DNA of 64,000 nt from an uncultured Clostridium sp. (GCA_947244325.1 CAMXJY010000003.1:267-64266), one strand, 5' to 3'. Counted from the first letter of the stretch, positions 9,129 to 63,132 are shown. Notes: a model not told the origin generated them from the sequence alone. Numbers and translations: made by a program.

Positions 9129-10313
9129 TTAAGGTAAATATGGCATTGGGTTTACTGGTGAACCTTTTATACGAACTTCAAAATGTAAATGATCTCCTGA
9201 TGAATTTCCTGTACTTCCTACTTTTCCTATAACTTGACCTTGTTTAACTGTATCTCCTGGAGAAACAGTTCTTGAGCCTGATAGCATATGTGCATATAAA
9301 GTCATTGTTCCATCATGATGATTTATTACAATATATTCTCCATAACTTTTATATTGACCTCTTAAATTTCTCATCGCTGTTGACGTTACTACAGTTCCAT
9401 CTTTTACTGCTATTACACTTTTTCCTTTTACATTTATATTTATATCTACACCTGTATGTGTTGCATATGAAGGATAATTAGGATTATTTATATTAGACCT
9501 TGTTAGTCCTAAAACAGGAAATATGTATCCACACGCACTAGGTGCTGTAACTGTTTGATTATTATTTTTCTTTGCTTCTTCTGCTGCTATTTTAGCTAAC
9601 TCTGCCTGAATTACTCTTTTATCTTCTTCAAATTCTTCAAGTTGTGCTTGTAGTTCCTTTTCTTCTTCTGTTAAATTTGAAACTAAAGATTGTTTTTGAC
9701 TAACAGATGAAGCAAGAGAATTTTCCTTTACCTTCAAACTTTGCTTATTTTGTTCTATTTCTGATTTTGCTTCTACTAAATAATTTTTTTCTGCTTTAAT
9801 CTTTTCTTGTGTCTCAGTTATTCTATCAAGTAATTCTTCATCAGCTTCTGCTAATTCTTCAATCAAATAATATTTTGAAATTAAATCTGATAGATTTTCA
9901 CATGATAATAACATATCTAAATAAGATGTACTACCACTTTCATATAATGCAACTAATCTTTTATCTAATAATTCTTTTTGAGTTTTATATTTTTCCTCTT
10001 GAGTTACTAAATCATCCTCTTTTATTTTTATTTGAGCTTCTACATCATTAATTCTTCCTTGTAACTGATTAATTTCTCCTTGATATGTAGTAATTTCTGC
10101 ATTCAATTTATCAATTTGGTTTAATGCAGTAGTCATTTTTTCTTTAGTTCCAGCTATTTCCGATTTTATTCCATCTATTTTGCTATCTAAATCATTTTGT
10201 TGCTGATTAAGCTCTGAACTTGTTACAGCATATAGATATGTATAGTTAGATATTAAACAAAAAAGAATAAAAACAATAATTAGTATTTTTACATATTTCT
10301 TTAGTATCTTCAT
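9129..10313 (-). CDS. Peptidoglycan DD-metalloendopeptidase (M23/LytM) with an N-terminal TM and a long coiled-coil, EnvC-like
   Basis: A heptad-rich coiled coil spans roughly residues 35-240. The C-terminal LytM domain has HxxxD...HxH (HTGVDI...GDHLHFEV). Confidence 0.8.
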   Translation of the reverse strand: MKILKKYVKILIIVFILFCLISNYTYLYAVTSSELNQQQNDLDSKIDGIKSEIAGTKEKMTTALNQIDKLNAEITTYQGEINQLQGRINDVEAQIKIKEDDLVTQEEKYKTQKELLDKRLVALYESGSTSYLDMLLSCENLSDLISKYYLIEELAEADEELLDRITETQEKIKAEKNYLVEAKSEIEQNKQSLKVKENSLASSVSQKQSLVSNLTEEEKELQAQLEEFEEDKRVIQAELAKIAAEEAKKNNNQTVTAPSACGYIFPVLGLTRSNINNPNYPSYATHTGVDININVKGKSVIAVKDGTVVTSTAMRNLRGQYKSYGEYIVINHHDGTMTLYAHMLSGSRTVSPGDTVKQGQVIGKVGSTGNSSGDHLHFEVRIKGSPVNPMPYLP

Positions 10314-10453
10314 ATTTTTCTCCCTTAAAGTTTCTATATATTTTATTATATAAATTAGACATGTACCATATTACTTCTAAATCTTACAATTATATATTAC
10401 CATATATTGTAAAAAAGTTTCAATATTTTTATATAATAATCTAAAATAGGATT

Positions 10454-12007
10454 TTACACAAAAACATTTATTATTTGGCATAATACAGGAAATTGCATTA
10501 ATATAGCTCCTGTAATCAAATATTTTTTATCTGTTTCTAATCTAGTTTTATTAAAAGCAAAAATCATTAATGCTACTACTGGTATAAAATATCTTCCCTG
10601 TATTCCAAGTATAATTTCATTTCCAATTTTTCCAATTCCAGCTAGTGATGTCCATTGAATATATATAGCAGTTATAATTAATAGGCTTGTACCAAACATT
10701 ATTAGCATAGTCCAAACTTTTCTTAAAGTATTTATTTCTAATGCTTTTGAATCTTCATTTACAAATAATGACATTAATAGACAAATACTTACAATATATG
10801 AAACTATTGGATATATAGTAGTTTTCGCATGACACATTAGCTCATCACCTGTACAAAGTTGATATATATACTGCGCTCCTTTTTGAGTTAAAGTTCTCAT
10901 AATTATCATACAATACTCCAAAGGATTACTTAGAATAAATTTCAACTGCTCAGTTGATGAAGCATTTGAATTTACTAAATTCATACTTCCTATAACAAGC
11001 CATGAAAGTCCTACTATAACACTTAAAGCAATTGTTATAATAACAAATTTTTTTAACTCTTTTTTATTTTCAAAATTTTCTTCTTTTAAAAGTAAAATAA
11101 TCATTACAAACGGCAAATATACAATTTTGCATAATGCTATCATACAACATAATATAAGCAATAAAAATTTCTCTTTTTTATTTATCTTTTCTTTTAAATA
11201 TACTTTTCTATATATTAAAGCTATAAACAGCGTACATACTGCGTTTGTAACCGTATCTCCTGATATACATACTGCTGAAAATATATTTACAGGGAGCAAA
11301 CAAAGTATTAAAAAAAATGTTTTTTTATTTGGCACAAGTTTTATAGAAATAGCACATAAGACTACCCAAAATATGTATCCTGTAATTCTCCCAAACATTC
11401 CAATAACTATAATATTATCGCTTAAAACTCTACCTACTGTTACCCCTATTACTTGTGGTATATATTGAATAGGAGAATATAATTTTATATTCCAATACTC
11501 TTTTATTAAATCTCTTCTTTCATCTGAATTCATACTAAATGCATCAAATTCATTTATGTAATTTTCATATTTTATTAATATAGAATTTTTATAATCAACT
11601 AGTTTTGAAAATGCTGGTGGAAATGTAGTATCTTCTTGTATATGAATATTAGTATATTTTCTAGATATTTCAAACACTCTTAAAAAATGTGATACTTCAT
11701 CTGTTCCATTTCCAAAAGGTGTTAAAGTAAAATAAAAAATTCCTAAAACACTTGCTAGTATAATAAATTGCTTATATACTTCTAATTTTGTTTTCTTAAA
11801 TATTACTAAAATTCCATCTATAGAAATAGCAATTATTATCATTGTTATTTGCAATATATTTTTTATGTTTTCTTCTGCTTTAAATACTACATTTCTAAAA
11901 TACATTATTATGATTGTTGCAAATAAAAAATAAAAAATTTGAGAAATAATAAATTTTAATTTTTTATTGTTTTCTATTTCTTGTATTTGTGTATTATTTT
12001 GCTCCAT
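10454..12007 (-). CDS. Large polytopic integral membrane protein (517 aa), possibly a glycosyltransferase-like / DUF-type membrane protein
   Basis: It has more than 10 predicted TM segments and no recognisable catalytic motif. The family is uncertain. Confidence 0.45.
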   Translation of the reverse strand: MEQNNTQIQEIENNKKLKFIISQIFYFLFATIIIMYFRNVVFKAEENIKNILQITMIIIAISIDGILVIFKKTKLEVYKQFIILASVLGIFYFTLTPFGNGTDEVSHFLRVFEISRKYTNIHIQEDTTFPPAFSKLVDYKNSILIKYENYINEFDAFSMNSDERRDLIKEYWNIKLYSPIQYIPQVIGVTVGRVLSDNIIVIGMFGRITGYIFWVVLCAISIKLVPNKKTFFLILCLLPVNIFSAVCISGDTVTNAVCTLFIALIYRKVYLKEKINKKEKFLLLILCCMIALCKIVYLPFVMIILLLKEENFENKKELKKFVIITIALSVIVGLSWLVIGSMNLVNSNASSTEQLKFILSNPLEYCMIIMRTLTQKGAQYIYQLCTGDELMCHAKTTIYPIVSYIVSICLLMSLFVNEDSKALEINTLRKVWTMLIMFGTSLLIITAIYIQWTSLAGIGKIGNEIILGIQGRYFIPVVALMIFAFNKTRLETDKKYLITGAILMQFPVLCQIINVFV

Positions 12008-52484: not shown

Positions 52485-52916
52485 TTAATTTTCTTCTATA
52501 ATTGATACTCCATCATTATCTTTTATATCTTCATCTTGGCTTTTTGAAACTTTACCTTTTACTTTTTTTGACATCATATCACTCCATTTATCAATATAAT
52601 ATCTTCTTATTATTGCTAAATTAGTAAACATTCTACCAACAAAAACTACTATTGCAGCTAAATAAATATCTACATTTAATTTGTTTCCTAAATATGTTAA
52701 AGCTATTGATAATATTGAATTTCCAAAGAATCCTGATAAGAAAATTTTTAAATCAAAATTTCCTTTTATTACAGAAGAAATTCCACCAAAAACTGTATCA
52801 AGTGCAGCTATAATAGCTATAGATAAATAACTTGAATATGTATAAGAAATTACTGGTGAATTTAATCCTAATATAGCTCCTATTAAACAACCTAAAATTA
52901 TTGCAATATATATCAT
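52485..52916 (-). CDS. sbp: Small basic protein Sbp (DUF1290)
   Basis: SYLSIAIIAALDTVFGGISSVIKGNFD...SGFFGN closely matches B. subtilis Sbp. It is in the position between ylxX and ftsA. Confidence 0.75.
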   Translation of the reverse strand: MIYIAIILGCLIGAILGLNSPVISYTYSSYLSIAIIAALDTVFGGISSVIKGNFDLKIFLSGFFGNSILSIALTYLGNKLNVDIYLAAIVVFVGRMFTNLAIIRRYYIDKWSDMMSKKVKGKVSKSQDEDIKDNDGVSIIEEN

Positions 52917-53632
52917 TATTTTTTTACCTCCTCTTTATTATCCTTTGCATATTCAAATTTTAATTCTTTATTATATGCTGGAATTACTATATTATCATCT
53001 ACTACAAGTTCTGCATTTCTATCATCATTCTTAATTTCATCTATAAATCCACCTTTTATTGTAAGTGCACTTTCAAGATATTTTTTATCTCCTATTGCTC
53101 TTACTACATATGGCGCTGAAACAGGTCTTTCGTTTATTCTTATTCTTACATAATTTATAAGAGCAAATTCTGATGCTGATACTATTCTTTCATCATTTAC
53201 AGAAATAGCTTCTGCTCCTGCACTATTAAGTTCATTTATTAATCTAAGTAGATGTTCTGGTTCTATATTATGTGTTTCAGAATCTGATAAAGTAACTATT
53301 ACACCTTCTCCTTTAATTTCTGTATATCCTAAATAAGTTTCTGCTTCTTTTACTTCTTGCTCTAAAATTTTAGATGTATTTTCGTCATTATTTACTTCTT
53401 GTTTATATTCATTAATTCTTGCTTCTTGTTCTTCCATTTTTGTTTCTACTTCTTCATACTTGGTTTTCCAATTTGCAAGCTCTGATCTAAGTTCTGTTTC
53501 TCTCATAGTTTCAATAGCTGTTATATCTGTTTTATCAACTGTTTTAAATTGTGTAAACATTATCATTGTTAAGATTAAAGCTGCACAACCTATAGATATT
53601 GTCATTGTTATTTTCTCTTTCAAATTTTTCAC
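52916..53632 (-). CDS. DUF881-family division-associated protein (YlxX-like)
   Basis: An N-terminal TM and a coiled coil are followed by the conserved GYTEIKGEGVIVTL...AGAEAISVNDERI... region. Confidence 0.7.
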   Translation of the reverse strand: MKNLKEKITMTISIGCAALILTMIMFTQFKTVDKTDITAIETMRETELRSELANWKTKYEEVETKMEEQEARINEYKQEVNNDENTSKILEQEVKEAETYLGYTEIKGEGVIVTLSDSETHNIEPEHLLRLINELNSAGAEAISVNDERIVSASEFALINYVRIRINERPVSAPYVVRAIGDKKYLESALTIKGGFIDEIKNDDRNAELVVDDNIVIPAYNKELKFEYAKDNKEEVKK

Positions 53633-53634
53633 CT

Positions 53635-54372
53635 CTATTCAACATTTGATGCATGTTCTAGCTTATATACACCTTCATATTTTGGAATTACTATTGTTTC
53701 TTTTTCAACTTGTTTTACATCTACACTTACTCCATAGGACTCAAGATTTTCTAAATATCCACCTGGCATTTTTAAAGAATAATAAAGTAATCCTGAAGGA
53801 CCTATTGCTTTTATAACAAATGGAGCACCTACTTTTTTATCATTTATTGTTACTACATTTCCTGAACATATTATACTTGTCTTATTTACTATTCTTTCAT
53901 CATTTATAGAAATGGCTTCTGCTCCTGCATTTTTTAATGCATTTACTACTTGTTGTAAATCTCCATCATGTACTATAAAATCAGTTGTAATTAAACCTGA
54001 ATTTTTTAAAACTGAACTATCTCCATCTTTTAGAGTAATTATTACTCCTTCTCCTTTAACTTCTGTATATCCTAATAATCTATTATAATTCTCTAATTTA
54101 TTACTCAATTCATTAGAACTTTCATCTGAATTTGACGCTTTTTCTCTTAATGACTCTAATTCTTCTTCCTTTTTTTCTAATTTACCATATGCATTTTCAT
54201 ATTTTTCTTTCCATCTAAGTACACTATCTCTAAGTTCGTTTTCTGCCTGAGTTCTTCCAACAGTTGTTGTACTACTTTGTACTGTTTTTATTTGAATAAA
54301 TATTCCAGCTGTAAGGAAAGTACACATTATTCCTAAAAGTATTGCAATCTTTATTTTATTTTGATTTTCCAT
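53635..54372 (-). CDS. DUF881-family division-associated protein (YlxW-like)
   Basis: It is paralogous to the preceding gene (GYTEVKGEGVIITL...AGAEAISINDERIV). Confidence 0.7.
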   Translation of the reverse strand: MENQNKIKIAILLGIMCTFLTAGIFIQIKTVQSSTTTVGRTQAENELRDSVLRWKEKYENAYGKLEKKEEELESLREKASNSDESSNELSNKLENYNRLLGYTEVKGEGVIITLKDGDSSVLKNSGLITTDFIVHDGDLQQVVNALKNAGAEAISINDERIVNKTSIICSGNVVTINDKKVGAPFVIKAIGPSGLLYYSLKMPGGYLENLESYGVSVDVKQVEKETIVIPKYEGVYKLEHASNVE

Positions 54373-54387
54373 TATTCTCTCCCTTCA

Positions 54388-55326
54388 TTATTCTGTACTT
54401 CTTCTAAAATAAACTCTTTCTTGATTCAAATCTACATTTAAAAATATCTCTCCTGCTCTTCCTTGATTTGCTTCTAATATTGATTTTAAACATAGCATTC
54501 TAGTATTTAAGTCAGAACCTTCACCTAAATATACTGTTTTTCCTTCACCTTCCATAATTAAAGTAAAGTTCTTAGTATCCGAAACATCTATTTTAGTTAT
54601 TAATTGATTTAATTCATTCAATTTTGCTTCTTCATATATTTTTATTATCATTTCCATCTTTTTTAAGTCTTCAACATCTATTCTATTTCCTGCTTTAATA
54701 TTACTTAAATCTGTAGTAAAACCTACCAAGATTGGAACTTCTAGCTTTTCATTTGAAATATCTAACATATATCCTTGATTATTGATATAAACATAACTAT
54801 CAGCAAATTGAAGCATATATGTAGCTTCTCTTTCTTTAATACTAATTTGTACTGTACCTGGTAATTTCCTTGAAATTTTTGCCTCTTCAATATATGCATT
54901 TTCTTTTATCTTCTTTATAACTTGCGATTTGTTAAATCTAAATATATTATTATCTATTTCAATTCCTGATAAACTTATAATCTTATTTTCTGATAATTTT
55001 TCGTTACCAACAACATTTATATTTTTTATACTAAACAAGCTAGAACTACATAAAAAAATTATTACTCCAAGTATTAGTGCTAAAATTATAATTACTTTTG
55101 CTATTGTTCCTTTATTACTTTGTTTAGTATTTATCATAGTTCTAGCTTCTGTTTTTTTAGAAGAATTTGATTTTTTCTTGTTTGATACTTTTTTATTACT
55201 TTGATTTTTATCTTTGCTATTTTTAACAGACTTTTTTTTATCTAAACTCTGATTTTTTTTGCGTTTATTTTTTGAAGTATTATTCGGTTTACTTTTTACA
55301 TTTACAATTATTTCATCTTCTTCCAA
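54388..55326 (-). CDS. divIB: Cell division protein DivIB/FtsQ (POTRA domain)
   Basis: A K-rich cytoplasmic N-terminus and a single TM are followed by POTRA-like IKNINVVGNEKLSENKI.... It sits between murA and the DUF881 genes. Confidence 0.6.
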   Translation of the reverse strand: MEEDEIIVNVKSKPNNTSKNKRKKNQSLDKKKSVKNSKDKNQSNKKVSNKKKSNSSKKTEARTMINTKQSNKGTIAKVIIILALILGVIIFLCSSSLFSIKNINVVGNEKLSENKIISLSGIEIDNNIFRFNKSQVIKKIKENAYIEEAKISRKLPGTVQISIKEREATYMLQFADSYVYINNQGYMLDISNEKLEVPILVGFTTDLSNIKAGNRIDVEDLKKMEMIIKIYEEAKLNELNQLITKIDVSDTKNFTLIMEGEGKTVYLGEGSDLNTRMLCLKSILEANQGRAGEIFLNVDLNQERVYFRRSTE

Positions 55327-55328
55327 AA

Positions 55329-56603
55329 TTACTCACCTTCTTCTCGGGTAATGTCTGCTCCAATACTATTTAGTTTTTTATCAAAATTTTCGTATCCTCT
55401 TAGTAAATATTCTAATTTACTAACTTTAGTTACTCCTTTACAAGCCAAACCTGCTAAAACAAGTGATGCTCCACCTCGTAAATCTGTACTTTCAACATTT
55501 GCTGGATGCAATCTTTTTACTCCTTTAATTATCATTGTCTTGCCTTCTATTGTGGCTTTTGCTCCCATTCTTTTTATTTCTTGCATAAACTTAAATCTGT
55601 TTTCAAATATATTTTCTGTAATAATAGAAGTTCCTTTGCATACAGTAAGTAATGTCGAAAATATTGGCTGTAAATCTGTTGGAAAACCTGGATATGGCAT
55701 TGTTTTTATATCAACTGCTTTAAGCTTTTTATTAGCATTTAGATAAATAGAATTATTACTTGTAATTATCTCACATCCACACTCAGTTAATTTACTTAAT
55801 ATTGGGCTTATATGTTCTGCACATACATTATTTAATTTTACACTTCCACCTGTTATTGCTGCTGCAACTAAAAAAGTTCCTGCTTCAATTCTGTCTGGCA
55901 TTATTTTATATGATACCTGTTTAAGAGATTCAACTCCCTTTATTTTTATAACATTTGTACCTGCTCCATAAACTTTTGCTCCCATTCTATTTAAGAAATT
56001 TGCTAAGTCTACTATTTCAGGTTCCATTGCACTATTGTTAATTGTTACTTCATGATCTCCCAAAACACTTGCTAGTATTAGATTTTCTGTAGCTCCTACA
56101 CTTGGAAAATCAAGTTCAATATTAGTCGATATTATTTTATCACATTTACACTCTATATATCTACAATTTTCATCTATTTTTATTCCAATTTTTTTAAAAT
56201 TTTCTAAATGTAAATCAATCGGCCTTGCTCCTATATCACATCCACCTGGATATGAGAATTTCACATTACCAAATCTACTAATGATTGCTCCTGCTATTAT
56301 TACTGATGACCTAAGTTTCCTCATTAAATTATCTGATATTGTAGTTTGACATACATCCTTTGAATTAATTATAATTTTATTTTTGTCTTTTTTTATTTTG
56401 CAACCAAGCTCTTCTAATATTTTAAGAGTTGTTCTAACATCTTCTATATCAGGTACATTATATAATTTTGTAGTTTTTCCACTAATAATGGTAGCTGCTA
56501 AAATAGGCAAACTTGCATTTTTTGAACCTGAAATGTCAACTTCGCCATGTAGCTTTTTTCCACCTTTAATTATGTAATTATACATTTTAGTTAACCTCCT
56601 CAT
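55329..56603 (-). CDS. murA: UDP-N-acetylglucosamine 1-carboxyvinyltransferase
   Basis: KLHGEVDISGSKNASLPILAATIISG is present and the active-site Cys context CDIGARPID is conserved. Length is 424 aa. Confidence 0.9.
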   Translation of the reverse strand: MRRLTKMYNYIIKGGKKLHGEVDISGSKNASLPILAATIISGKTTKLYNVPDIEDVRTTLKILEELGCKIKKDKNKIIINSKDVCQTTISDNLMRKLRSSVIIAGAIISRFGNVKFSYPGGCDIGARPIDLHLENFKKIGIKIDENCRYIECKCDKIISTNIELDFPSVGATENLILASVLGDHEVTINNSAMEPEIVDLANFLNRMGAKVYGAGTNVIKIKGVESLKQVSYKIMPDRIEAGTFLVAAAITGGSVKLNNVCAEHISPILSKLTECGCEIITSNNSIYLNANKKLKAVDIKTMPYPGFPTDLQPIFSTLLTVCKGTSIITENIFENRFKFMQEIKRMGAKATIEGKTMIIKGVKRLHPANVESTDLRGGASLVLAGLACKGVTKVSKLEYLLRGYENFDKKLNSIGADITREEGE

Positions 56604-58611: not shown

Positions 58612-58648
58612 CAAAAAAAGAGTAGCTTTTGGCTACTCTGATTTTTTT
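58612..58648 (-). terminator. Rho-independent terminator downstream of the cohesin gene
   Basis: The stem AGAGTAGC / GCTACTCT has A-runs and T-runs on both sides. Confidence 0.6.
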
Positions 58649-58654
58649 GTAAAA

Positions 58655-59416
58655 TTATTTTATTTCTTTATTTACTATTTCAAACTTTATATAAAATACT
58701 ATTGCTAAAACTAATATAGCTCCTCCTAAATACATTATTGTATCTTCAACTCCTGTATAAGGAATATCGTCTCCAGCTGTATTTGTATTATTTGTGTAAG
58801 GTGAAACTATGTTGCTATTTGTATTAGTATTAGTGTTTGTATTTGAAGTATTGTTTGCTGTGTTATTAGCTACTGGTAAAGCAATTATACTTCCATTTGA
58901 TGGTGTGTTTGTTACATTAGCTGTATTTCCTTCTCCTGCGTTACCTACTGTTATTGATGTAGATATATCAGCTGCAGCTATTGTTGTTTCACTGTTTGAT
59001 GCTACTATATTTGTAAATTTAATTTCTCCACTTTTACCTGTTACACCGCTTTTTGTTTTAAAAGCTATTTGGAAAACTTTTTCTTCTGTTTTTACGAAAG
59101 TTTGCTTTGTTAATGTAATTTTTCCTGTATCAGTTCCATAATCTGGTTTCCAACTATTTAAACCATCAATGCTTGAATCATTTATCGGTTCAAATACTTC
59201 CTCATCGTATTTTAAATATCCACTTAATGAGTTTACACCATTTGTTCCTACATCAAGATTAGATATTTTAACTTCTATTGTAAATTCTGTTGATTCTGGT
59301 ACTGCTGTACTACTTGGTGTCATAGTAGCTGTAAAACTTAATGCACTTACTACAGTGGCATATACAAAAATTAACATCATTGCTATTAAAATAATTTTAA
59401 AAACTCTCTTTTTCAT
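58655..59416 (-). CDS. Surface-anchored single-cohesin-domain protein (mini-scaffoldin / anchoring protein)
   Basis: A signal peptide is followed by a cohesin-like beta-sandwich of about 140 aa (EFTIEVKISNLDVGTNGVNSLSGYLKYDEEVFEP...FQIAFKTKSGVTGKSGEIKFTN). Then come an N/T-rich linker and the C-terminal IPYTG plus hydrophobic segment plus KEIK tail, which is a sorting-signal-like anchor. Confidence 0.6.
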   Translation of the reverse strand: MKKRVFKIILIAMMLIFVYATVVSALSFTATMTPSSTAVPESTEFTIEVKISNLDVGTNGVNSLSGYLKYDEEVFEPINDSSIDGLNSWKPDYGTDTGKITLTKQTFVKTEEKVFQIAFKTKSGVTGKSGEIKFTNIVASNSETTIAAADISTSITVGNAGEGNTANVTNTPSNGSIIALPVANNTANNTSNTNTNTNTNSNIVSPYTNNTNTAGDDIPYTGVEDTIMYLGGAILVLAIVFYIKFEIVNKEIK

Positions 59417-59532
59417 TTGAACTCTCCTTTTACTTTAGTATAACTTTTCACAATATAAAAATCAAGTGAAAATGCGTTTTTTTATATTACATTTTGATAA
59501 CATAAATAACATAATTATTTCAATTTTTCAAG

Positions 59533-61719
59533 TTACTTTGAATTATATAAAACTATCATTTGTGATACATCAGTTAAATCAATAATACCATCTAAATTCA
59601 TATCTGCTGCTTTTAATGCATTACCTGTTAATTGAAATTGTTTATACTCATTATAGTGAAGTATAAGTTTTGATATATCTGTTAATTCAACTATTCCATC
59701 TGGTTTTATATCTCCTCTTACTATTAAGATATATTCTTTTCCATCTGATAATTTTAATTTCATTCCTGTTGTTACTATAAAACTATTATTTAAAACTTCT
59801 TCTCCATCTTCAGTCATAACTTTTTTGTCTAAATCTGTTTTTACATTTTCTAAAAATGTACTTATTTTTGTTTCTTCAGGTATATTCATTATGTATTCAT
59901 TTTCTATTTTATATACTTCTGTAGTTAATTCATTTTTCTTATTATCTTCATCTGGTTTATTATTGTTATCATCATTATCGTTTTTATTGTCATTATCATC
60001 TTTATTGTCATCTTTATTATCATCATCTTCACTAGGATTATTTCCAATATCAGGTCCTGGTACATTCTCTTTAATCTTAGTAAAAGCCTTTATACAAACA
60101 TCAGCTCTATTCATATCCATATTTCCTACATTGAAATTAGCTAAGTTTGTCCATGTTTTTCCACCATCCATTGATATATAACTTCTATTATCTGAATCAA
60201 CATCAGCATATGCTGTTCCTGCTGCATTTGCTTCAACTTGGAAATAGAATTTTCCATTTTCTGAAGTTTGTTTTACATAGATTGCAAATTCACTTCCACT
60301 TAACTCTTTTGAATCTACTTTTATTCTATGATATCCTGGTGATAATACTCCATCAGACTCTCCTATTTTTACTACATCATCTGAAACTAATGTGCTTCCT
60401 GCAAAAATTTCTACTTTTGCATAATCTGCTAATGTTATACCAACACTTTCTAGAACTTCATTTTCATTTATAGTTTCTCTTTCAAAAGTTGCTCCATAAT
60501 ATCCTGTGTCCATTGCTGTAGTACCTATTTGGAATACTCCTCCATAATAATCATGTTGATAAATTTTATCATAATCAACATCTGATGTTGATTCAATTCC
60601 ATACATTTCATTTTCTATAAAAGTATCTTCATAAGATATATAAATATATCCATTATCAAAAGATTCTGTTCCATAAGTATTTAAAACTATATATGCACCA
60701 TCTGATGTTGGTTTTGCTCCTTCTGCGAAATTATCTCTTGAATAATTATCATCCCATCCTACTATTGTAATAGCATGATCTCTTACTATTGTATTATCAT
60801 TACAGTGATATGCAACTGATTTAAAAGGTGATGATGGGTTACTATAATATTTTGCATAATTACCACCTGTCATTGATACTAGTGCACCTTTTTCTACTAA
60901 ATGCTCTTTTACTATATTTCTAATACTTTCTACTTCATCTTTTGTATATTCTTCCCCATTTGCATTATAATATGAAACTGAAATTGTATTACCATTTGCA
61001 TCTTTTTCATATCTTTTAGAAATTGTTGGTAAAATTGTATAATCAGTTACTATTGTATCAACTCTTTTATCTATTTCACTTAAATTTACTTTTTGTTCAT
61101 TATTTTCAAAAGGCATATCGCTTTCTAGTACTGCACCTTGTCCATTACTTAAATATCCAAGTCCTGAAATAGGAAGTCCACCTCTTCCAACTTCTCTACT
61201 AAAACCTTTTTCATTTATTCCATCTAAAAAAGTTCTAGATGTAGCATAATCCATATGTCTTTCTGAGAAATTTTCAAGTTCTGAATTACCACTTAAAAGT
61301 GCAATATTTGTTTCCATAGCTTTTATTGTAGAAAATGCCCAACATTCTGTAGTATTTCCTTGATGCTCAACTCTCATATTCATTTTATCTGCTAAATTAT
61401 ATCTTGAATTATTAACAACTGCAGAAACATTCTCTAATCTATTATTCTCACTTCCTAATAATGTATTCAATAAACTTGGAACTGCATTTAATTCATATTT
61501 ACTTAAAATACTATCTGGTGCTTCTGAATAATTAGTTTGTGGCATTAATGTATTTTCTTTTTCTTCTATACTAAGTTCATTCCACTTTTTATATTCTTCT
61601 GATAGATTTACATTAAAATCACTTGCAAAAACTTTTCCAGAAAATATAAAAGAAAAAAGAAATGTACTTGCTACAGCTAATGTTTTTATTTTTTCCTTTT
61701 GAAATTTGAATTTTTTCAT
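59533..61719 (-). CDS. Secreted papain-like (C1 family) cysteine peptidase with a C-terminal type-I dockerin
   Basis: A signal peptide is present. The catalytic Cys context is QGNTTECWAFSTIKAME, the His is RDHAITIVGWDD and the Asn is NGYIYISYE. A D/N/K-rich linker follows. Two dockerin calcium-binding repeats are present (DIKPDGIVELTDISKLILHYN and ADMNLDGIIDLTDVSQMIVLYN). Confidence 0.8.
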   Translation of the reverse strand: MKKFKFQKEKIKTLAVASTFLFSFIFSGKVFASDFNVNLSEEYKKWNELSIEEKENTLMPQTNYSEAPDSILSKYELNAVPSLLNTLLGSENNRLENVSAVVNNSRYNLADKMNMRVEHQGNTTECWAFSTIKAMETNIALLSGNSELENFSERHMDYATSRTFLDGINEKGFSREVGRGGLPISGLGYLSNGQGAVLESDMPFENNEQKVNLSEIDKRVDTIVTDYTILPTISKRYEKDANGNTISVSYYNANGEEYTKDEVESIRNIVKEHLVEKGALVSMTGGNYAKYYSNPSSPFKSVAYHCNDNTIVRDHAITIVGWDDNYSRDNFAEGAKPTSDGAYIVLNTYGTESFDNGYIYISYEDTFIENEMYGIESTSDVDYDKIYQHDYYGGVFQIGTTAMDTGYYGATFERETINENEVLESVGITLADYAKVEIFAGSTLVSDDVVKIGESDGVLSPGYHRIKVDSKELSGSEFAIYVKQTSENGKFYFQVEANAAGTAYADVDSDNRSYISMDGGKTWTNLANFNVGNMDMNRADVCIKAFTKIKENVPGPDIGNNPSEDDDNKDDNKDDNDNKNDNDDNNNKPDEDNKKNELTTEVYKIENEYIMNIPEETKISTFLENVKTDLDKKVMTEDGEEVLNNSFIVTTGMKLKLSDGKEYILIVRGDIKPDGIVELTDISKLILHYNEYKQFQLTGNALKAADMNLDGIIDLTDVSQMIVLYNSK

Positions 61720-61995: not shown

Positions 61996-63132
61996 ATGAG
62001 CATAAATTCTGCCTTAAAAAAAGAAGGTATTAAAGTAATAGGTCAATTAAATACATTAGAAATAAATAAAATAGCTTCAAACATTTCTGAATCTATATCT
62101 AAAGCTTTTCCAGAGCATAACATAAACCAAAGCGATTTATTTATTTCGATTGCTAGACTTAATATGTATATAGCAGAAATGCCAAATGATGCAATGGCTA
62201 AATATTTTTATAAAAATAATTCAATCTATTTTAGTAAAAATATGAATTTAGATGATATAAATTCTTTAGCTGTTCATGAATGTATACATTTTATTCAAGC
62301 TTTAACAAATAAAAATGGAAAATTATTACGTCTTGGACTTTATAATTTGCAAGGTACTAATAATAATGGAATGGCTTTAAATGAAGCAGCTGTTCAACAT
62401 ATGGCTGCTATAGCAACTAATTCAAACTTAGATACAGTAAAATATTATAATATGGAATTATCTACAGAAAGCCCAGACTTTTATCCATTACAAACAGCAT
62501 TATTAAATCAAATGATGTATTTTACAGGTACATATTCTTTATATCACAGTACTTTATATAGTAATGATGTATTTAAAAATACTTTTATTGCTAAATCTAG
62601 TAGCAAAACTTATGCCAAAATAGAAAAAAACTTTGATTTAATTTTTGAATACGAAGCAAAACTTGCAGAAGAAACTTATAGATTATCAATTTCATCTGAA
62701 GAAATAAAAAATTTACCTAAAATAAAGAAAATAAATTCAAGAATAGATGATTTAAAAGCTATAATTTTTGAAAAAACATTAGAAACACAAAATTTAATAG
62801 TTATAAATTGTTTTAATCATGAATTAAGCTCAATTAAAACATTAGAAGATGTTAAAAATTTTCAATACAGTTTGTATAATTTTAAACATGTTTTAATATC
62901 AACAAACAATTATAATTTCTTTAATGATTTTTATATAGATATGATGAATAAATTAGAAGAAAGAAAAGAATTCATATTAAAATATGGAAACATATTAACA
63001 CTCGATTCACTAACAAACGAACTTTCAACCATAGAATCAAACACATACGGATTCCAATTCTTCAAAAATTTATTTAGTAAACTAAAATTATTATTTGAAG
63101 AAGCAGTAAGAGAAAAAGAAGTAGATAAATAA
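61996..63132 (+). CDS. Hypothetical HExxH protein, a possible zinc metallopeptidase-like protein
   Basis: It is 378 aa with the motif LAVHECIHFIQ. I recognise no other family features. Confidence 0.35.
   Translation: MSINSALKKEGIKVIGQLNTLEINKIASNISESISKAFPEHNINQSDLFISIARLNMYIAEMPNDAMAKYFYKNNSIYFSKNMNLDDINSLAVHECIHFIQALTNKNGKLLRLGLYNLQGTNNNGMALNEAAVQHMAAIATNSNLDTVKYYNMELSTESPDFYPLQTALLNQMMYFTGTYSLYHSTLYSNDVFKNTFIAKSSSKTYAKIEKNFDLIFEYEAKLAEETYRLSISSEEIKNLPKIKKINSRIDDLKAIIFEKTLETQNLIVINCFNHELSSIKTLEDVKNFQYSLYNFKHVLISTNNYNFFNDFYIDMMNKLEERKEFILKYGNILTLDSLTNELSTIESNTYGFQFFKNLFSKLKLLFEEAVREKEVDK

What the first reader, a model, noticed from the sequence alone, without database searches (positions are those of the whole stretch)
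58655..61719. Cohesin-dockerin pair built around a papain-like cysteine protease
A secreted C1 peptidase ends in a canonical two-repeat type-I dockerin. The adjacent gene encodes a signal peptide, one cohesin-like module and a C-terminal cell-surface anchor. This looks like a minimal two-gene system for displaying a protease on the cell surface through cohesin-dockerin binding. That use is outside the usual cellulosomal glycoside-hydrolase context.
Basis: partly seen in the sequence, partly recalled or inferred. Interest (0 to 1): 0.65.

Follow-up and report, generated by a model that had tools for sequence, protein, structure and literature searches.

The report
Surface-docked Cwp84-like cysteine protease pair
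Two neighbouring genes of an uncultured gut Clostridium encode a secreted papain-type protease with a dockerin tail and a cell-wall-anchored cohesin that probably holds it on the cell surface; this is a real, conserved example of a docking system already known from other gut and rumen bacteria, not a new mechanism.

Summary
Gene B (59533-61719, minus) encodes a signal peptide, propeptide, C1A cysteine protease, Cwp84-type lectin-like domain, acidic linker, a small beta "X" module and a two-repeat dockerin. The dockerin reaches Pfam's threshold only when the tail is scanned alone. Gene A (58655-59416, minus) encodes a signal peptide, one cohesin, an N/T-rich stalk and an IPYTG sortase-type anchor. 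Its cohesin fold is shown by AlphaFold2 plus Foldseek, with top hits all cohesins; Pfam finds cohesin in only 10 of 67 orthologues.

The two genes look like one operon and are adjacent in 33 of 38 species-level genomes of Candidatus Scatovivens-like gut Clostridia. Binding itself is inferred, not shown.

The "minimal two-gene system" reading is doubtful for three reasons:
- The same X-dockerin unit ends many other surface proteins in similar low-GC organisms.
- Five genomes keep the cohesin gene with no protease gene within 10 kb.
- Four genomes carry a second cohesin gene in tandem.

Close precedents exist: ScaE with X-dockerin partners in R. flavefaciens, Sca2 in R. bromii, and cSca5 with dockerin-peptidases in Limousia. 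I rate it a new member of a known kind, of modest interest.

The parts
59533..61719 (-). Gene B: 728-aa secreted Cwp84-like C1A cysteine protease with a C-terminal X-dockerin (stop codon included)
   Evidence: ORF. 1409 homologues. Best solved relative is C. difficile Cwp84, 4ci7/4d59, E 4.7e-24.
61624..61719 (-). Signal peptide of B (residues 1-32, predicted cleavage VFA|SD)
   Evidence: Read from the sequence: basic N-terminus, hydrophobic core, A-x-A-like site. No signal-peptide predictor was available.
61414..61623 (-). Probable propeptide of B (about residues 33-102)
   Evidence: Inferred from the alignment to Cwp84. The Cwp84 propeptide cleavage site Lys91-Ser92 (PMC4089489) aligns near residue 102 of B.
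60589..61374 (-). Peptidase_C1 catalytic domain (residues 116-377; Gln120, Cys126, His315, Asn347)
   Evidence: PF00112, E 3.3e-13. [quoted passage not shown] All are at least 90% conserved in 62 homologues. Residue numbers.
60079..60564 (-). Cwp84-type lectin-like domain (residues 386-547)
   Evidence: PF18560, E 6.8e-15, full model length. Present in 62 of 63 family members.
59935..60060 (-). Asp/Asn/Lys-rich low-complexity linker (residues 554-595)
   Evidence: Sequence.
59728..59934 (-). X module: small beta domain packed against the dockerin (about residues 596-664)
   Evidence: AlphaFold2 pLDDT 94, with pTM 0.87 for X plus dockerin together. No confident match to known X modules. It travels with the dockerin as one unit in many other proteins.
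59536..59727 (-). Dockerin (residues 665-728): two EF-hand-like repeats, loops D670..D681 and D706..D717
   Evidence: PF00404 at 28.1 bits, above the 22.9 gathering score. Three-helix model superposes on 1ohz_B (1.1 A), 8x39 (1.0 A) and 2ccl_B (2.0 A). Loop conservation.
59417..59532 (-). 116-nt B-A intergenic spacer with the Shine-Dalgarno AAAGGAGAG (59422-59430), 5 nt before the ATG of A; no terminator-like site
   Evidence: Sequence and scan.
58655..59416 (-). Gene A: 253-aa single-cohesin anchoring protein (stop codon included)
   Evidence: ORF. 398 homologues, mostly without any Pfam annotation.
59342..59416 (-). Signal peptide of A (residues 1-25, predicted cleavage VSA|LS)
   Evidence: Sequence. 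Modelled as helix 2-22.
58937..59341 (-). Cohesin module (residues 26-160)
   Evidence: pLDDT above 90, all-beta. Foldseek top ~40 hits are all cohesins, best 2vo8 and 2jh2 from C. perfringens. PF00963 hits 10 of 67 orthologues.
58769..58936 (-). Asn/Thr-rich disordered stalk (residues 161-216)
   Evidence: pLDDT below 50 for residues 162-217. Length varies among orthologues.
58658..58768 (-). C-terminal sorting signal: IPYTG, hydrophobic helix, charged tail KFEIVNKEIK (residues 217-253)
   Evidence: Across 38 species the motif is [IMV]-P-[YKEA]-T-G; P, T and G are kept and X varies. Helix 223-252. 2 of 67 orthologues hit Pfam Gram_pos_anchor.
58619..58639 (-). Terminator-like hairpin with T-run, 16 nt after the stop of A; the likely end of the B-A transcript
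   Evidence: Scan found 2 sites in the region against 0.7 expected; both are this hairpin read on either strand.
61996..63132 (+). U378: a conserved, divergently transcribed neighbour, apparently cytoplasmic, with HExxH. Whether it belongs to the system is uncertain.
   Evidence: Adjacent to B, or to A where B is absent, in every locus with enough upstream DNA and in L041. No Pfam, NCBIfam or PDB match. 1268 homologues, no functional annotation among the 120 listed.

Best explanation
B and A form a two-gene transcription unit that places a cysteine protease on the outside of the cell wall.

Proposed steps:
1. B is exported by its signal peptide as a zymogen. Its N-terminal propeptide is removed, as in Cwp84, leaving a C1A protease. 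The active-site cleft is bordered by the fused lectin-like domain.
2. A flexible acidic linker connects the protease to a rigid X-dockerin dyad.
3. A is exported. It is processed at its [I/M/V]PxTG signal by a sortase encoded elsewhere and linked to peptidoglycan, or failing that it is held by its C-terminal membrane helix.
4. A presents one cohesin at the end of a disordered Asn/Thr-rich stalk.
5. The dockerin of B, folded around two calcium ions, binds this cohesin non-covalently and tethers the protease to the cell surface.

The cohesin is probably not reserved for B. It is more likely the general cell-surface anchor of these bacteria for proteins that end in the same X-dockerin unit, with B as its genetically linked and most conserved client.

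Shown here: all domain identities, the intact catalytic residues, operon-like organisation and conserved synteny.
Inferred: the cohesin-dockerin binding, sortase processing, zymogen activation and the substrates. The substrates could be surface or S-layer protein maturation as for Cwp84, or digestion of host or dietary protein; the evidence does not decide between them.
For: Domains: Peptidase_C1 and Lectin_like; closest solved relative Cwp84; Gln120, Cys126 and His315 aligned to the Cwp84 active site and conserved (PMC4089489).

Dockerin: Pfam above threshold on the isolated tail and in 62 of 63 relatives; confident model superposing on solved dockerins; calcium ligands D1, D5 and D12 invariant in both repeats and N3 invariant in repeat 2.

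Cohesin: confident model whose best ~40 PDB matches are all cohesins; Pfam Cohesin in 10 of 67 orthologues.

Anchor: [IMV]P[YKEA]TG, a helix and a charged tail in 38 species.

Linkage: B directly precedes A on the same strand in 33 of 38 genomes and next to a 42%-identical B orthologue. There is a strong Shine-Dalgarno before A, no terminator between the genes and one after A.

Precedent: sortase-anchored single-cohesin proteins bind dockerins of peptidases and LRR proteins in R. bromii (PMC4611034). A cysteine-peptidase-like protein with an X-dockerin dyad exists in R. flavefaciens (PMC3573020).

Shared-anchor reading: the X-dockerin unit occurs on many other architectures, including giant C1-LRR-MucBP proteins on contigs of 25.9% G+C. 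A occurs without B in 5 genomes and is duplicated in tandem in 4.
Against: - No binding test of any kind was possible. No complex model could be made or inspected with these tools.
- The distance-correlation test gave similar partial correlations for cohesin-dockerin (0.36), cohesin-catalytic domain (0.35) and cohesin-U378 (0.42), so it shows no specific co-evolution.
- The window protein A does not reach Pfam Cohesin by sequence.
- Repeat 1 of the window dockerin has Lys at calcium-ligand position 3, so that site may be weakened.
- No sortase gene lies in the 64-kb window or in the 38 related loci.
- The X-dockerin proteins with other architectures were not shown to come from the same genomes as A and B. 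Their contigs only have a similar G+C.
Confidence: 0.7

Rival explanations
1. A dedicated, self-contained pair. A exists only to hold B, and no other dockerin protein uses this cohesin.
For: No other cohesin-, dockerin- or X-like module occurs in the 64-kb window or within 10 kb of the pair in related genomes, apart from tandem copies of A. Adjacency is tight and the layout is operon-like.
Against: Five genomes retain A with no B or dockerin within 10 kb. Four genomes have a second, diverged cohesin-anchor gene. The same X-dockerin unit, 50-65% identical to those of B orthologues, ends unrelated large surface proteins on contigs of the same G+C. The analogous R. bromii Sca2 binds several clients (PMC4611034).
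Confidence: 0.15
2. The adjacency is only synteny. The dockerin of B binds a different cohesin encoded elsewhere, and A binds other dockerins.
For: The co-evolution test was not specific. A persists without B in 5 genomes. Cohesin-dockerin specificities cannot be read from sequence.
Against: The pair stays together on one strand across sequences as diverged as 37-42% identity in B, while the downstream neighbourhood changes. There is no terminator between the genes. No second type of cohesin was seen in any of the loci.
Confidence: 0.08
3. The cohesin-fold domain of A is not a dockerin receptor. It could be an adhesin or pilin-like surface module, or a substrate processed by B, as SlpA is by Cwp84.
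For: Lower-ranked fold matches include a C. perfringens pilin domain (8gsy) and a fibrillar-adhesin CLIPPER domain (9ifr). Sequence similarity to Pfam Cohesin is marginal. Cwp84 acts on a surface protein (PMC4089489).
Against: The best ~40 structural matches are bona fide cohesins, several of them solved in complex with dockerins. The neighbouring gene ends in a dockerin whose only known partner class is cohesins.
Confidence: 0.05
4. The dockerin-like tail of B is only a calcium-binding stabilising module, or binds the cell wall or a carbohydrate directly, and needs no protein partner.
For: Dockerins are EF-hand relatives; 2 of 63 family members also hit EF-hand_5 and 1 hits EF-hand_8. Lys at position 3 of repeat 1 departs from the consensus.
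Against: Helix residues after each loop are invariant across the family (S14, K15, H19, Y20, N21 in repeat 1; S14, Q15, Y20 in repeat 2). This fits a conserved protein-binding face rather than calcium binding alone. A cohesin gene is conserved next door.
Confidence: 0.02

Closest known systems
ScaE with X-dockerin partners in Ruminococcus flavefaciens, including the cysteine-peptidase-like RflaF_05439
   Same: A sortase-anchored protein with a single cohesin holds proteins that end in an X-dockerin dyad. One such partner carries papain-like (NlpC/P60) cysteine peptidase modules (PMC3573020; ScaE anchoring as summarised in PMC4611034).
   Different: Here the cargo is a C1A protease with a lectin-like domain, not NlpC/P60. 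The X module does not match the R. flavefaciens X-dockerin structures (4iu2_B probability 0.25). The cohesin is compact and closest to type I and C. perfringens cohesins, not type III. No multi-cohesin scaffoldin is seen nearby.
Sca2 of Ruminococcus bromii (amylosome anchor)
   Same: It has a single cohesin and a C-terminal sortase motif. It was shown experimentally to bind dockerins of peptidase and LRR proteins as well as amylases, so the authors call it a general surface-anchoring mechanism (PMC4611034).
   Different: Sca2 is 534 aa and A is 253 aa. R. bromii dockerins are not described there as X-dockerin dyads. No conserved operon of one cargo gene plus the anchor gene is reported.
cSca5 and dockerin-bearing peptidases of Limousia pullorum (the 'mucinolysome')
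   Same: A gut Clostridia system with an N-terminal cohesin and C-terminal LPxTG anchor protein, and six dockerin-carrying peptidases (PMC12997984).
   Different: The Limousia system includes multi-cohesin scaffoldins and many dockerin glycoside hydrolases. None of these was seen here, although only part of the genome is available.
Cwp84 of Clostridioides difficile
   Same: The same protease core: signal peptide, propeptide, C1A domain with Gln/Cys/His, and a fused lectin-like domain (PMC4089489). It is also a cell-surface enzyme.
   Different: Cwp84 is held by cell-wall-binding domains that follow the lectin-like domain (PMC4089489; the CWB2, PF04122, naming is from my own knowledge). B has no such repeats and carries a linker and X-dockerin instead. 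The retention module has been swapped.
Non-cellulosomal cohesin-dockerin pairs of Clostridium perfringens glycoside hydrolases and toxins
   Same: These are the closest cohesin structures (2vo8 TM 0.82, 2jh2). They occur in a low-GC, host-associated Clostridium and are used outside plant-fibre degradation (summarised in PMC12997984).
   Different: In C. perfringens the cohesins and dockerins sit on the enzymes themselves and link them to each other. They are not on a dedicated wall-anchored protein, and the cargo is glycosidases, not a C1 protease.

Membership tests
Cohesin (PF00963 / cohesin fold) | Beta-sandwich (jelly-roll) module of about 140 residues superposable on solved cohesins | tested here: met
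   Residues 26-160 have pLDDT above 90 and are all-beta. The top ~40 Foldseek PDB hits are all cohesins, E down to 6e-8, TM up to 0.82, rmsd 2.2 A.
Cohesin (PF00963 / cohesin fold) | Sequence-profile match to the family | tested here: inconclusive
   The window protein has no hit at E<=1. 10 of 67 orthologues hit, best E 1.7e-6. A PDB profile search found no cohesin.
Cohesin (PF00963 / cohesin fold) | Binds a dockerin | not testable with these tools
   Needs recombinant proteins or a complex prediction with coordinates.
Dockerin type I (PF00404) | Profile match above the gathering score | tested here: met
   28.1 bits against 22.9 on the isolated tail, and 62 of 63 relatives match. Not reported when the whole protein is scanned.
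Dockerin type I (PF00404) | Two duplicated segments, each a 12-residue EF-hand-like calcium loop (D1, N/D3, D5, D12) followed by a helix | tested here: met
   Repeat 2 is fully canonical and invariant. Repeat 1 has D1, D5 and D12 invariant, but position 3 is Lys in the window protein (N 42, K 14, S 5 of 63). The helices are present in the model.
Dockerin type I (PF00404) | Fold superposable on solved dockerins | tested here: met
   1ohz_B rmsd 1.1 A and TM 0.87; 8x39 rmsd 1.0 A; 2ccl_B rmsd 2.0 A. E-values are weak (>=0.014) because the domain is short.
Type II/III X-dockerin dyads (C. thermocellum CipA, R. flavefaciens CttA/ScaB) | X module homologous to those of known X-dockerin structures | tested here: not met
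   5k39_B probability 0.21 and 4iu2_B probability 0.25, with rmsd above 11 A. A module is present and predicted to be rigidly packed (pTM 0.87), but it is a different one.
Peptidase C1A, Cwp84-like | C1 domain with catalytic Gln/Cys/His, plus the fused lectin-like domain | tested here: met
   PF00112 and PF18560. Gln120, Cys126 and His315 align to Cwp84 Gln110, Cys116 and His262 (PMC4089489) and are conserved.
C. difficile Cwp (cell wall protein) family | Three CWB2 cell-wall-binding repeats | tested here: not met
   No CWB2 hit in B at E<=1. The C-terminus is a linker plus X-dockerin.
Sortase-anchored (LPXTG) surface proteins | LPXTG-like pentapeptide, then a hydrophobic segment, then a charged tail at the C-terminus | tested here: met
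   IPYTG in the window protein. The motif is [IMV]P[YKEA]TG in 38 species, with P, T and G kept and X variable. Helix 223-252. Some metagenome orthologues have I[DTS]YAG instead.
Sortase-anchored (LPXTG) surface proteins | Match to curated anchor models, and a sortase in the genome | tested here: inconclusive
   Only a weak NCBIfam EF0750_LPXTG hit (E 0.009, below the cut-off). 2 of 67 orthologues hit Gram_pos_anchor. No TLxTC-bearing ORF occurs in the window or the loci. The rest of the genome is not available.
Cellulosome in the strict sense | A scaffoldin with several cohesins, plus dockerin-bearing plant-cell-wall glycoside hydrolases | tested here: not met
   A has one cohesin. No further cohesin or dockerin occurs in the window or in the +/-10 kb of 38 related loci, apart from tandem single-cohesin copies. 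Whole genomes were not searched.

The most novel reading that the evidence does not exclude
In this clade of uncultured gut Clostridia the cohesin-dockerin pair is a housekeeping device. It would replace the CWB2 wall-binding repeats of a Cwp84-type protease whose job is to mature the cell's own surface or S-layer proteins. Cohesin-dockerin docking would then serve cell-envelope biogenesis rather than nutrient acquisition. The always-adjacent cytoplasmic HExxH protein U378 might form a third, regulatory component.
Probability: 0.12. Interest if true: 0.55.

Novelty: new member of a known kind. Interest (0 to 1): 0.33.

Why it matters
It gives a function to a gene family that public databases leave almost entirely unannotated. 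Most of the 398 cohesin-protein homologues carry no Pfam domain.

It is a clean natural example of anchor-module swapping on a Cwp84-type protease, with CWB2 repeats replaced by an X-dockerin. It also adds another lineage of abundant, uncultured animal- and human-gut Clostridia to those that use cohesin-dockerin docking for purposes other than fibre degradation.

A practical point for annotators: the dockerin is missed when the whole protein is scanned, and the cohesin is visible only by structure prediction. Sequence-only censuses of cohesin-dockerin systems therefore undercount them.

It does not reveal a new mechanism.

Tried and rejected
- Pfam and NCBIfam on the full-length proteins gave no cohesin or dockerin. 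For the dockerin this was resolved by scanning the tail alone. For the cohesin it was resolved by structure.
- PDB sequence searches with A alone and with a 67-sequence profile found no cohesin.
- A mirror-tree / partial Mantel test on 24 loci found that all components correlate about equally once the topoisomerase is controlled for. It is not evidence for or against specific co-evolution.
- A search for a sortase (TLxTC) in the window and all loci found only spurious short ORFs.
- Profiles of the cohesin, X and dockerin modules against the six-frame window found no second copy.
- Rfam found nothing on the locus.
- U378 had no match in Pfam, NCBIfam or the PDB, and the 120 listed of its 1268 homologues carry no Pfam domain or informative name.
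- The organism of the other X-dockerin proteins could not be found from cluster membership, because no names were held.
- Peer et al. 2009, on non-cellulosomal cohesins and dockerins, is not held in the library.
- I considered a fused cohesin-linker-dockerin AlphaFold job.
Full report
**What is there**

The window is low in G+C (about 26%). Its other genes are ordinary chromosomal ones: an [FeFe]-hydrogenase, ClpB/C-like, HtrA, ComEC, CarD, two DUF881 genes, FtsQ, MurA and a topoisomerase.

At the stated coordinates two minus-strand ORFs lie head to tail: B (59533-61719, 728 aa) and A (58655-59416, 253 aa). The 116-nt spacer between them contains a strong Shine-Dalgarno (AAAGGAGAG) 5 nt before the ATG of A and no terminator-like site. 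A G+C-rich hairpin with a T-run follows the stop of A at 58619-58639. This is the layout of a two-gene operon. Rfam finds nothing in the region.

**The protease, B**

- Pfam gives Peptidase_C1 (residues 116-377, E 3.3e-13) and Lectin_like PF18560 (386-547, E 6.8e-15).
- The best solved relative is Cwp84 of C. difficile (4ci7/4d59, E 4.7e-24).
- The Cwp84 active site is Gln110, Cys116 and His262 (PMC4089489). In the alignment these fall on Gln120, Cys126 and His315 of B (numbers), and all are at least 90% conserved in 62 homologues.
- The Cwp84 propeptide cleavage site aligns near residue 102 of B, so a zymogen with a ~70-residue propeptide is likely. This is an inference.
- After the lectin-like domain comes a 42-residue Asp/Asn/Lys-rich linker (554-595), then the C-terminal 133 residues.
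- B has no CWB2 repeats. It is therefore a Cwp84-like protease core, not a member of the Cwp cell-wall-protein family.

**The dockerin**

The full-length scan did not report PF00404. The 136-residue tail scanned alone scores 28.1 bits, above the gathering score of 22.9 (E 2.3e-6), and 62 of 63 family members match. PDB sequence hits to the tail are weak, but all are dockerins in the same register.

The AlphaFold2 model of the tail is very confident (pLDDT 94.2, pTM 0.87). It shows a small beta module (about 596-664) packed on a three-helix dockerin. Foldseek superposes the helical part on type I dockerins: 1ohz_B at 1.1 A, 8x39 at 1.0 A and 2ccl_B at 2.0 A.

The beta module matches none of the known X modules; the type II and type III X-dockerin chains score probabilities of only 0.21-0.25.

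In the family alignment, calcium ligands D1, D5 and D12 are invariant in both repeats and N3 is invariant in repeat 2. Position 3 of repeat 1 is variable (N 42, K 14, S 5 of 63) and is Lys672 in the window protein. "Canonical" is therefore true for repeat 2 and nearly true for repeat 1.

**The cohesin protein, A**

Sequence methods fail on the window protein, but 10 of 67 orthologues reach Pfam Cohesin, best E 1.7e-6.

The AlphaFold2 model has pLDDT above 90 for residues 26-160 (all beta). It also shows a disordered Asn/Thr-rich segment at 162-217 and a terminal helix at 223-252.

Foldseek against the PDB returns cohesins as the top ~40 hits (E 6e-8 to 2e-5). The closest are the non-cellulosomal C. 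perfringens cohesins 2vo8 (TM 0.82, rmsd 2.2 A) and 2jh2. The second refutation criterion, no cohesin fold, is therefore also not met.

The C-terminus reads IPYTG, followed by a hydrophobic helix and KFEIVNKEIK. Across 38 species-level genomes the motif is [IMV]-P-[YKEA]-T-G, with P, T and G kept and the X position free. That is the signature of a sortase signal. Against this:
- Curated anchor models barely register.
- Some metagenome orthologues read I[DTS]YAG.
- No sortase gene lies in the window or the related loci.

**Conservation and host**

A scan of one genome per species found 38 loci. All come from uncultured gut Clostridia of humans, chickens, sheep, rabbits and mice, and many are labelled Candidatus Scatovivens (taxonomy).

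In 33 of the 38, a B orthologue ending in the X-dockerin directly precedes A on the same strand. These loci are flanked by a divergent gene (U378) upstream and by the topoisomerase and murA downstream. The pairing also extends further out:
- A B orthologue of 42% identity (L040) is followed by a cohesin gene.
- One of 37% identity (L041) is preceded by U378.

The surface modules evolve two to three and a half times faster than the neighbouring topoisomerase. Mean p-distances are cohesin 0.40, dockerin 0.42, X 0.57 and catalytic region 0.46, against 0.16 for the topoisomerase.

**Is it a minimal, dedicated pair?**

Within the window there is no other cohesin, dockerin or X module. Three observations argue against exclusivity:

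1. An exhaustive search with the X-dockerin fragment found 1361 proteins (152 at E<=1e-10). In many of these the whole X-plus-dockerin unit sits at the end of proteins of 118 to 3911 residues. A Pfam survey of 43 of them shows Peptidase_C1/Lectin_like in only 10. The rest carry BspA-type LRR, F5/8-type-C, Listeria-Bacteroides repeats, MucBP, Big_2, NPCBM, a GH5 and others. Two giant Peptidase_C1-LRR-MucBP proteins (2050 and 3911 aa) have X-dockerins 51-52% identical to the window's. That is as close as B orthologues of other species. One of them (the 3911-aa protein, L039) lies on a contig of 25.9% G+C.
2. Five genomes keep A next to U378 with no B and no dockerin within 10 kb.
3. Four genomes have a second cohesin-anchor gene in tandem, 56-61% identical and with its own IPETG or IPATG signal.

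I could not show that the other X-dockerin proteins come from the same genomes as A and B, so the "shared anchor" reading is likely but not proven.

**Does the dockerin bind this cohesin?**

This was not testable here. A partial Mantel test on 24 complete loci gave cohesin-dockerin r = 0.36 after controlling for the topoisomerase. Cohesin-catalytic domain (0.35) and cohesin-U378 (0.42) gave similar values, so there is no specific signal. The claim rests on family membership, conserved adjacency and operon structure, and precedent.

**Comparison with what is known**

- Sortase-anchored single-cohesin proteins that hold dockerin proteins on the cell are established. Examples are ScaE in R. flavefaciens and Sca2 in R. 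bromii. Sca2 was shown to bind dockerins of a peptidase and an LRR protein, and the authors interpret it as a general anchoring mechanism (PMC4611034).
- R. flavefaciens has numerous dockerin-bearing peptidases (PMC2930009), and one papain-like (NlpC/P60) protein with an X-dockerin dyad (PMC3573020).
- Rumen metagenomes contain a C10 peptidase-dockerin (PMC6487960).
- Limousia pullorum has six dockerin-peptidases and an LPxTG single-cohesin protein, cSca5 (PMC12997984).
- No paper in the library connects a Cwp84-type protease with a dockerin; the only paper holding both terms is a general review. Nothing on Scatovivens concerns this locus.

From my own knowledge, Peer et al. 2009 (FEMS Microbiol Lett 291:1) catalogued scattered non-cellulosomal cohesins and dockerins, including ones on peptidases. 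That paper could not be read here.

**Verdict**

The system is a new member of a known kind. It has a different cargo (a Cwp84-type C1A protease whose wall-binding repeats are replaced by an X-dockerin), an unassigned X module, a cohesin family that sequence profiles mostly miss, and a conserved cargo-anchor operon. Interest is modest.

Noticed in passing
window 61996-63132 (+): U378 is a 378-aa protein with no signal peptide. It has an HECIH motif followed about 35 residues later by NEAAVQ, a spacing like that of gluzincin metalloproteases. It has no Pfam, NCBIfam or PDB match, and the 120 listed of its 1268 homologues carry no Pfam domain or informative name. It is the divergent neighbour of B, or of A where B is absent, in every related locus with enough upstream DNA.
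   Followed up: partly
L021, L023, L026, L031, L034 (cohesin gene at about 10001-10800 or the equivalent): Five genomes, with a higher G+C of 34% in L021, keep the cohesin-anchor gene (MPKTG/MPYTG signal) next to U378. They have no protease-dockerin gene and no dockerin within 10 kb. In L021 the downstream genes are carA and carB rather than the topoisomerase and murA.
   Followed up: partly
L006 10927-11715; L018 10863-11639; L020 1471-2304; L030 10804-11637: A second single-cohesin anchor gene lies in tandem after the first. It is 56-61% identical in the cohesin domain and has its own IPETG or IPATG sorting signal.
   Followed up: partly
L039 10001-21736 and L042 1602-7754: Giant proteins of 3911 and 2050 aa with Peptidase_C1, BspA-type LRR, Listeria-Bacteroides repeats and MucBP end in the same X-dockerin unit. 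Both lie in a conserved position after a ComEA-like gene, and L039 has 25.9% G+C.
   Followed up: partly
proteins P0241, P0242, P0254, P0269, P0271 (from the X-dockerin search; not in the window): These proteins of 859-2369 aa each carry 9-11 Dockerin_1 domains in tandem ('poly-dockerins'). Four of the five show little else; P0269 also has three Listeria-Bacteroides repeats. Their organisms are unknown.
   Followed up: no
window 59533-61719 (-): HMMER does not report PF00404 when the whole 728-aa protein is scanned at E<=1, but gives 28.1 bits (above threshold) on the isolated tail. The low-complexity Asp/Asn linker may be the cause. Dockerin censuses based on full-length scans would miss this protein.
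   Followed up: partly
alignment A1 (metagenome orthologues of A), residues 217-226: About 9 of 67 orthologues have I[DTS]YAG-AED[ST] in place of IPYTG-VEDT, losing both the Pro and the Thr of the sortase motif. The G-x-E-D that follows and the tail YIKFE.INKE.K are unusually well conserved for a sorting signal.
   Followed up: no
L018 7433-9920 and L033 4331-6380: The protease gene is broken into two ORFs, with the catalytic part and the X-dockerin part separate. This could be a frameshift, a pseudogene or an assembly error.
   Followed up: no
window 52916-56603 (-): A cell-division and cell-wall cluster lies two genes downstream of the pair, just beyond the topoisomerase gene: two DUF881 paralogues, an FtsQ/DivIB-like gene and murA.
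   Followed up: no
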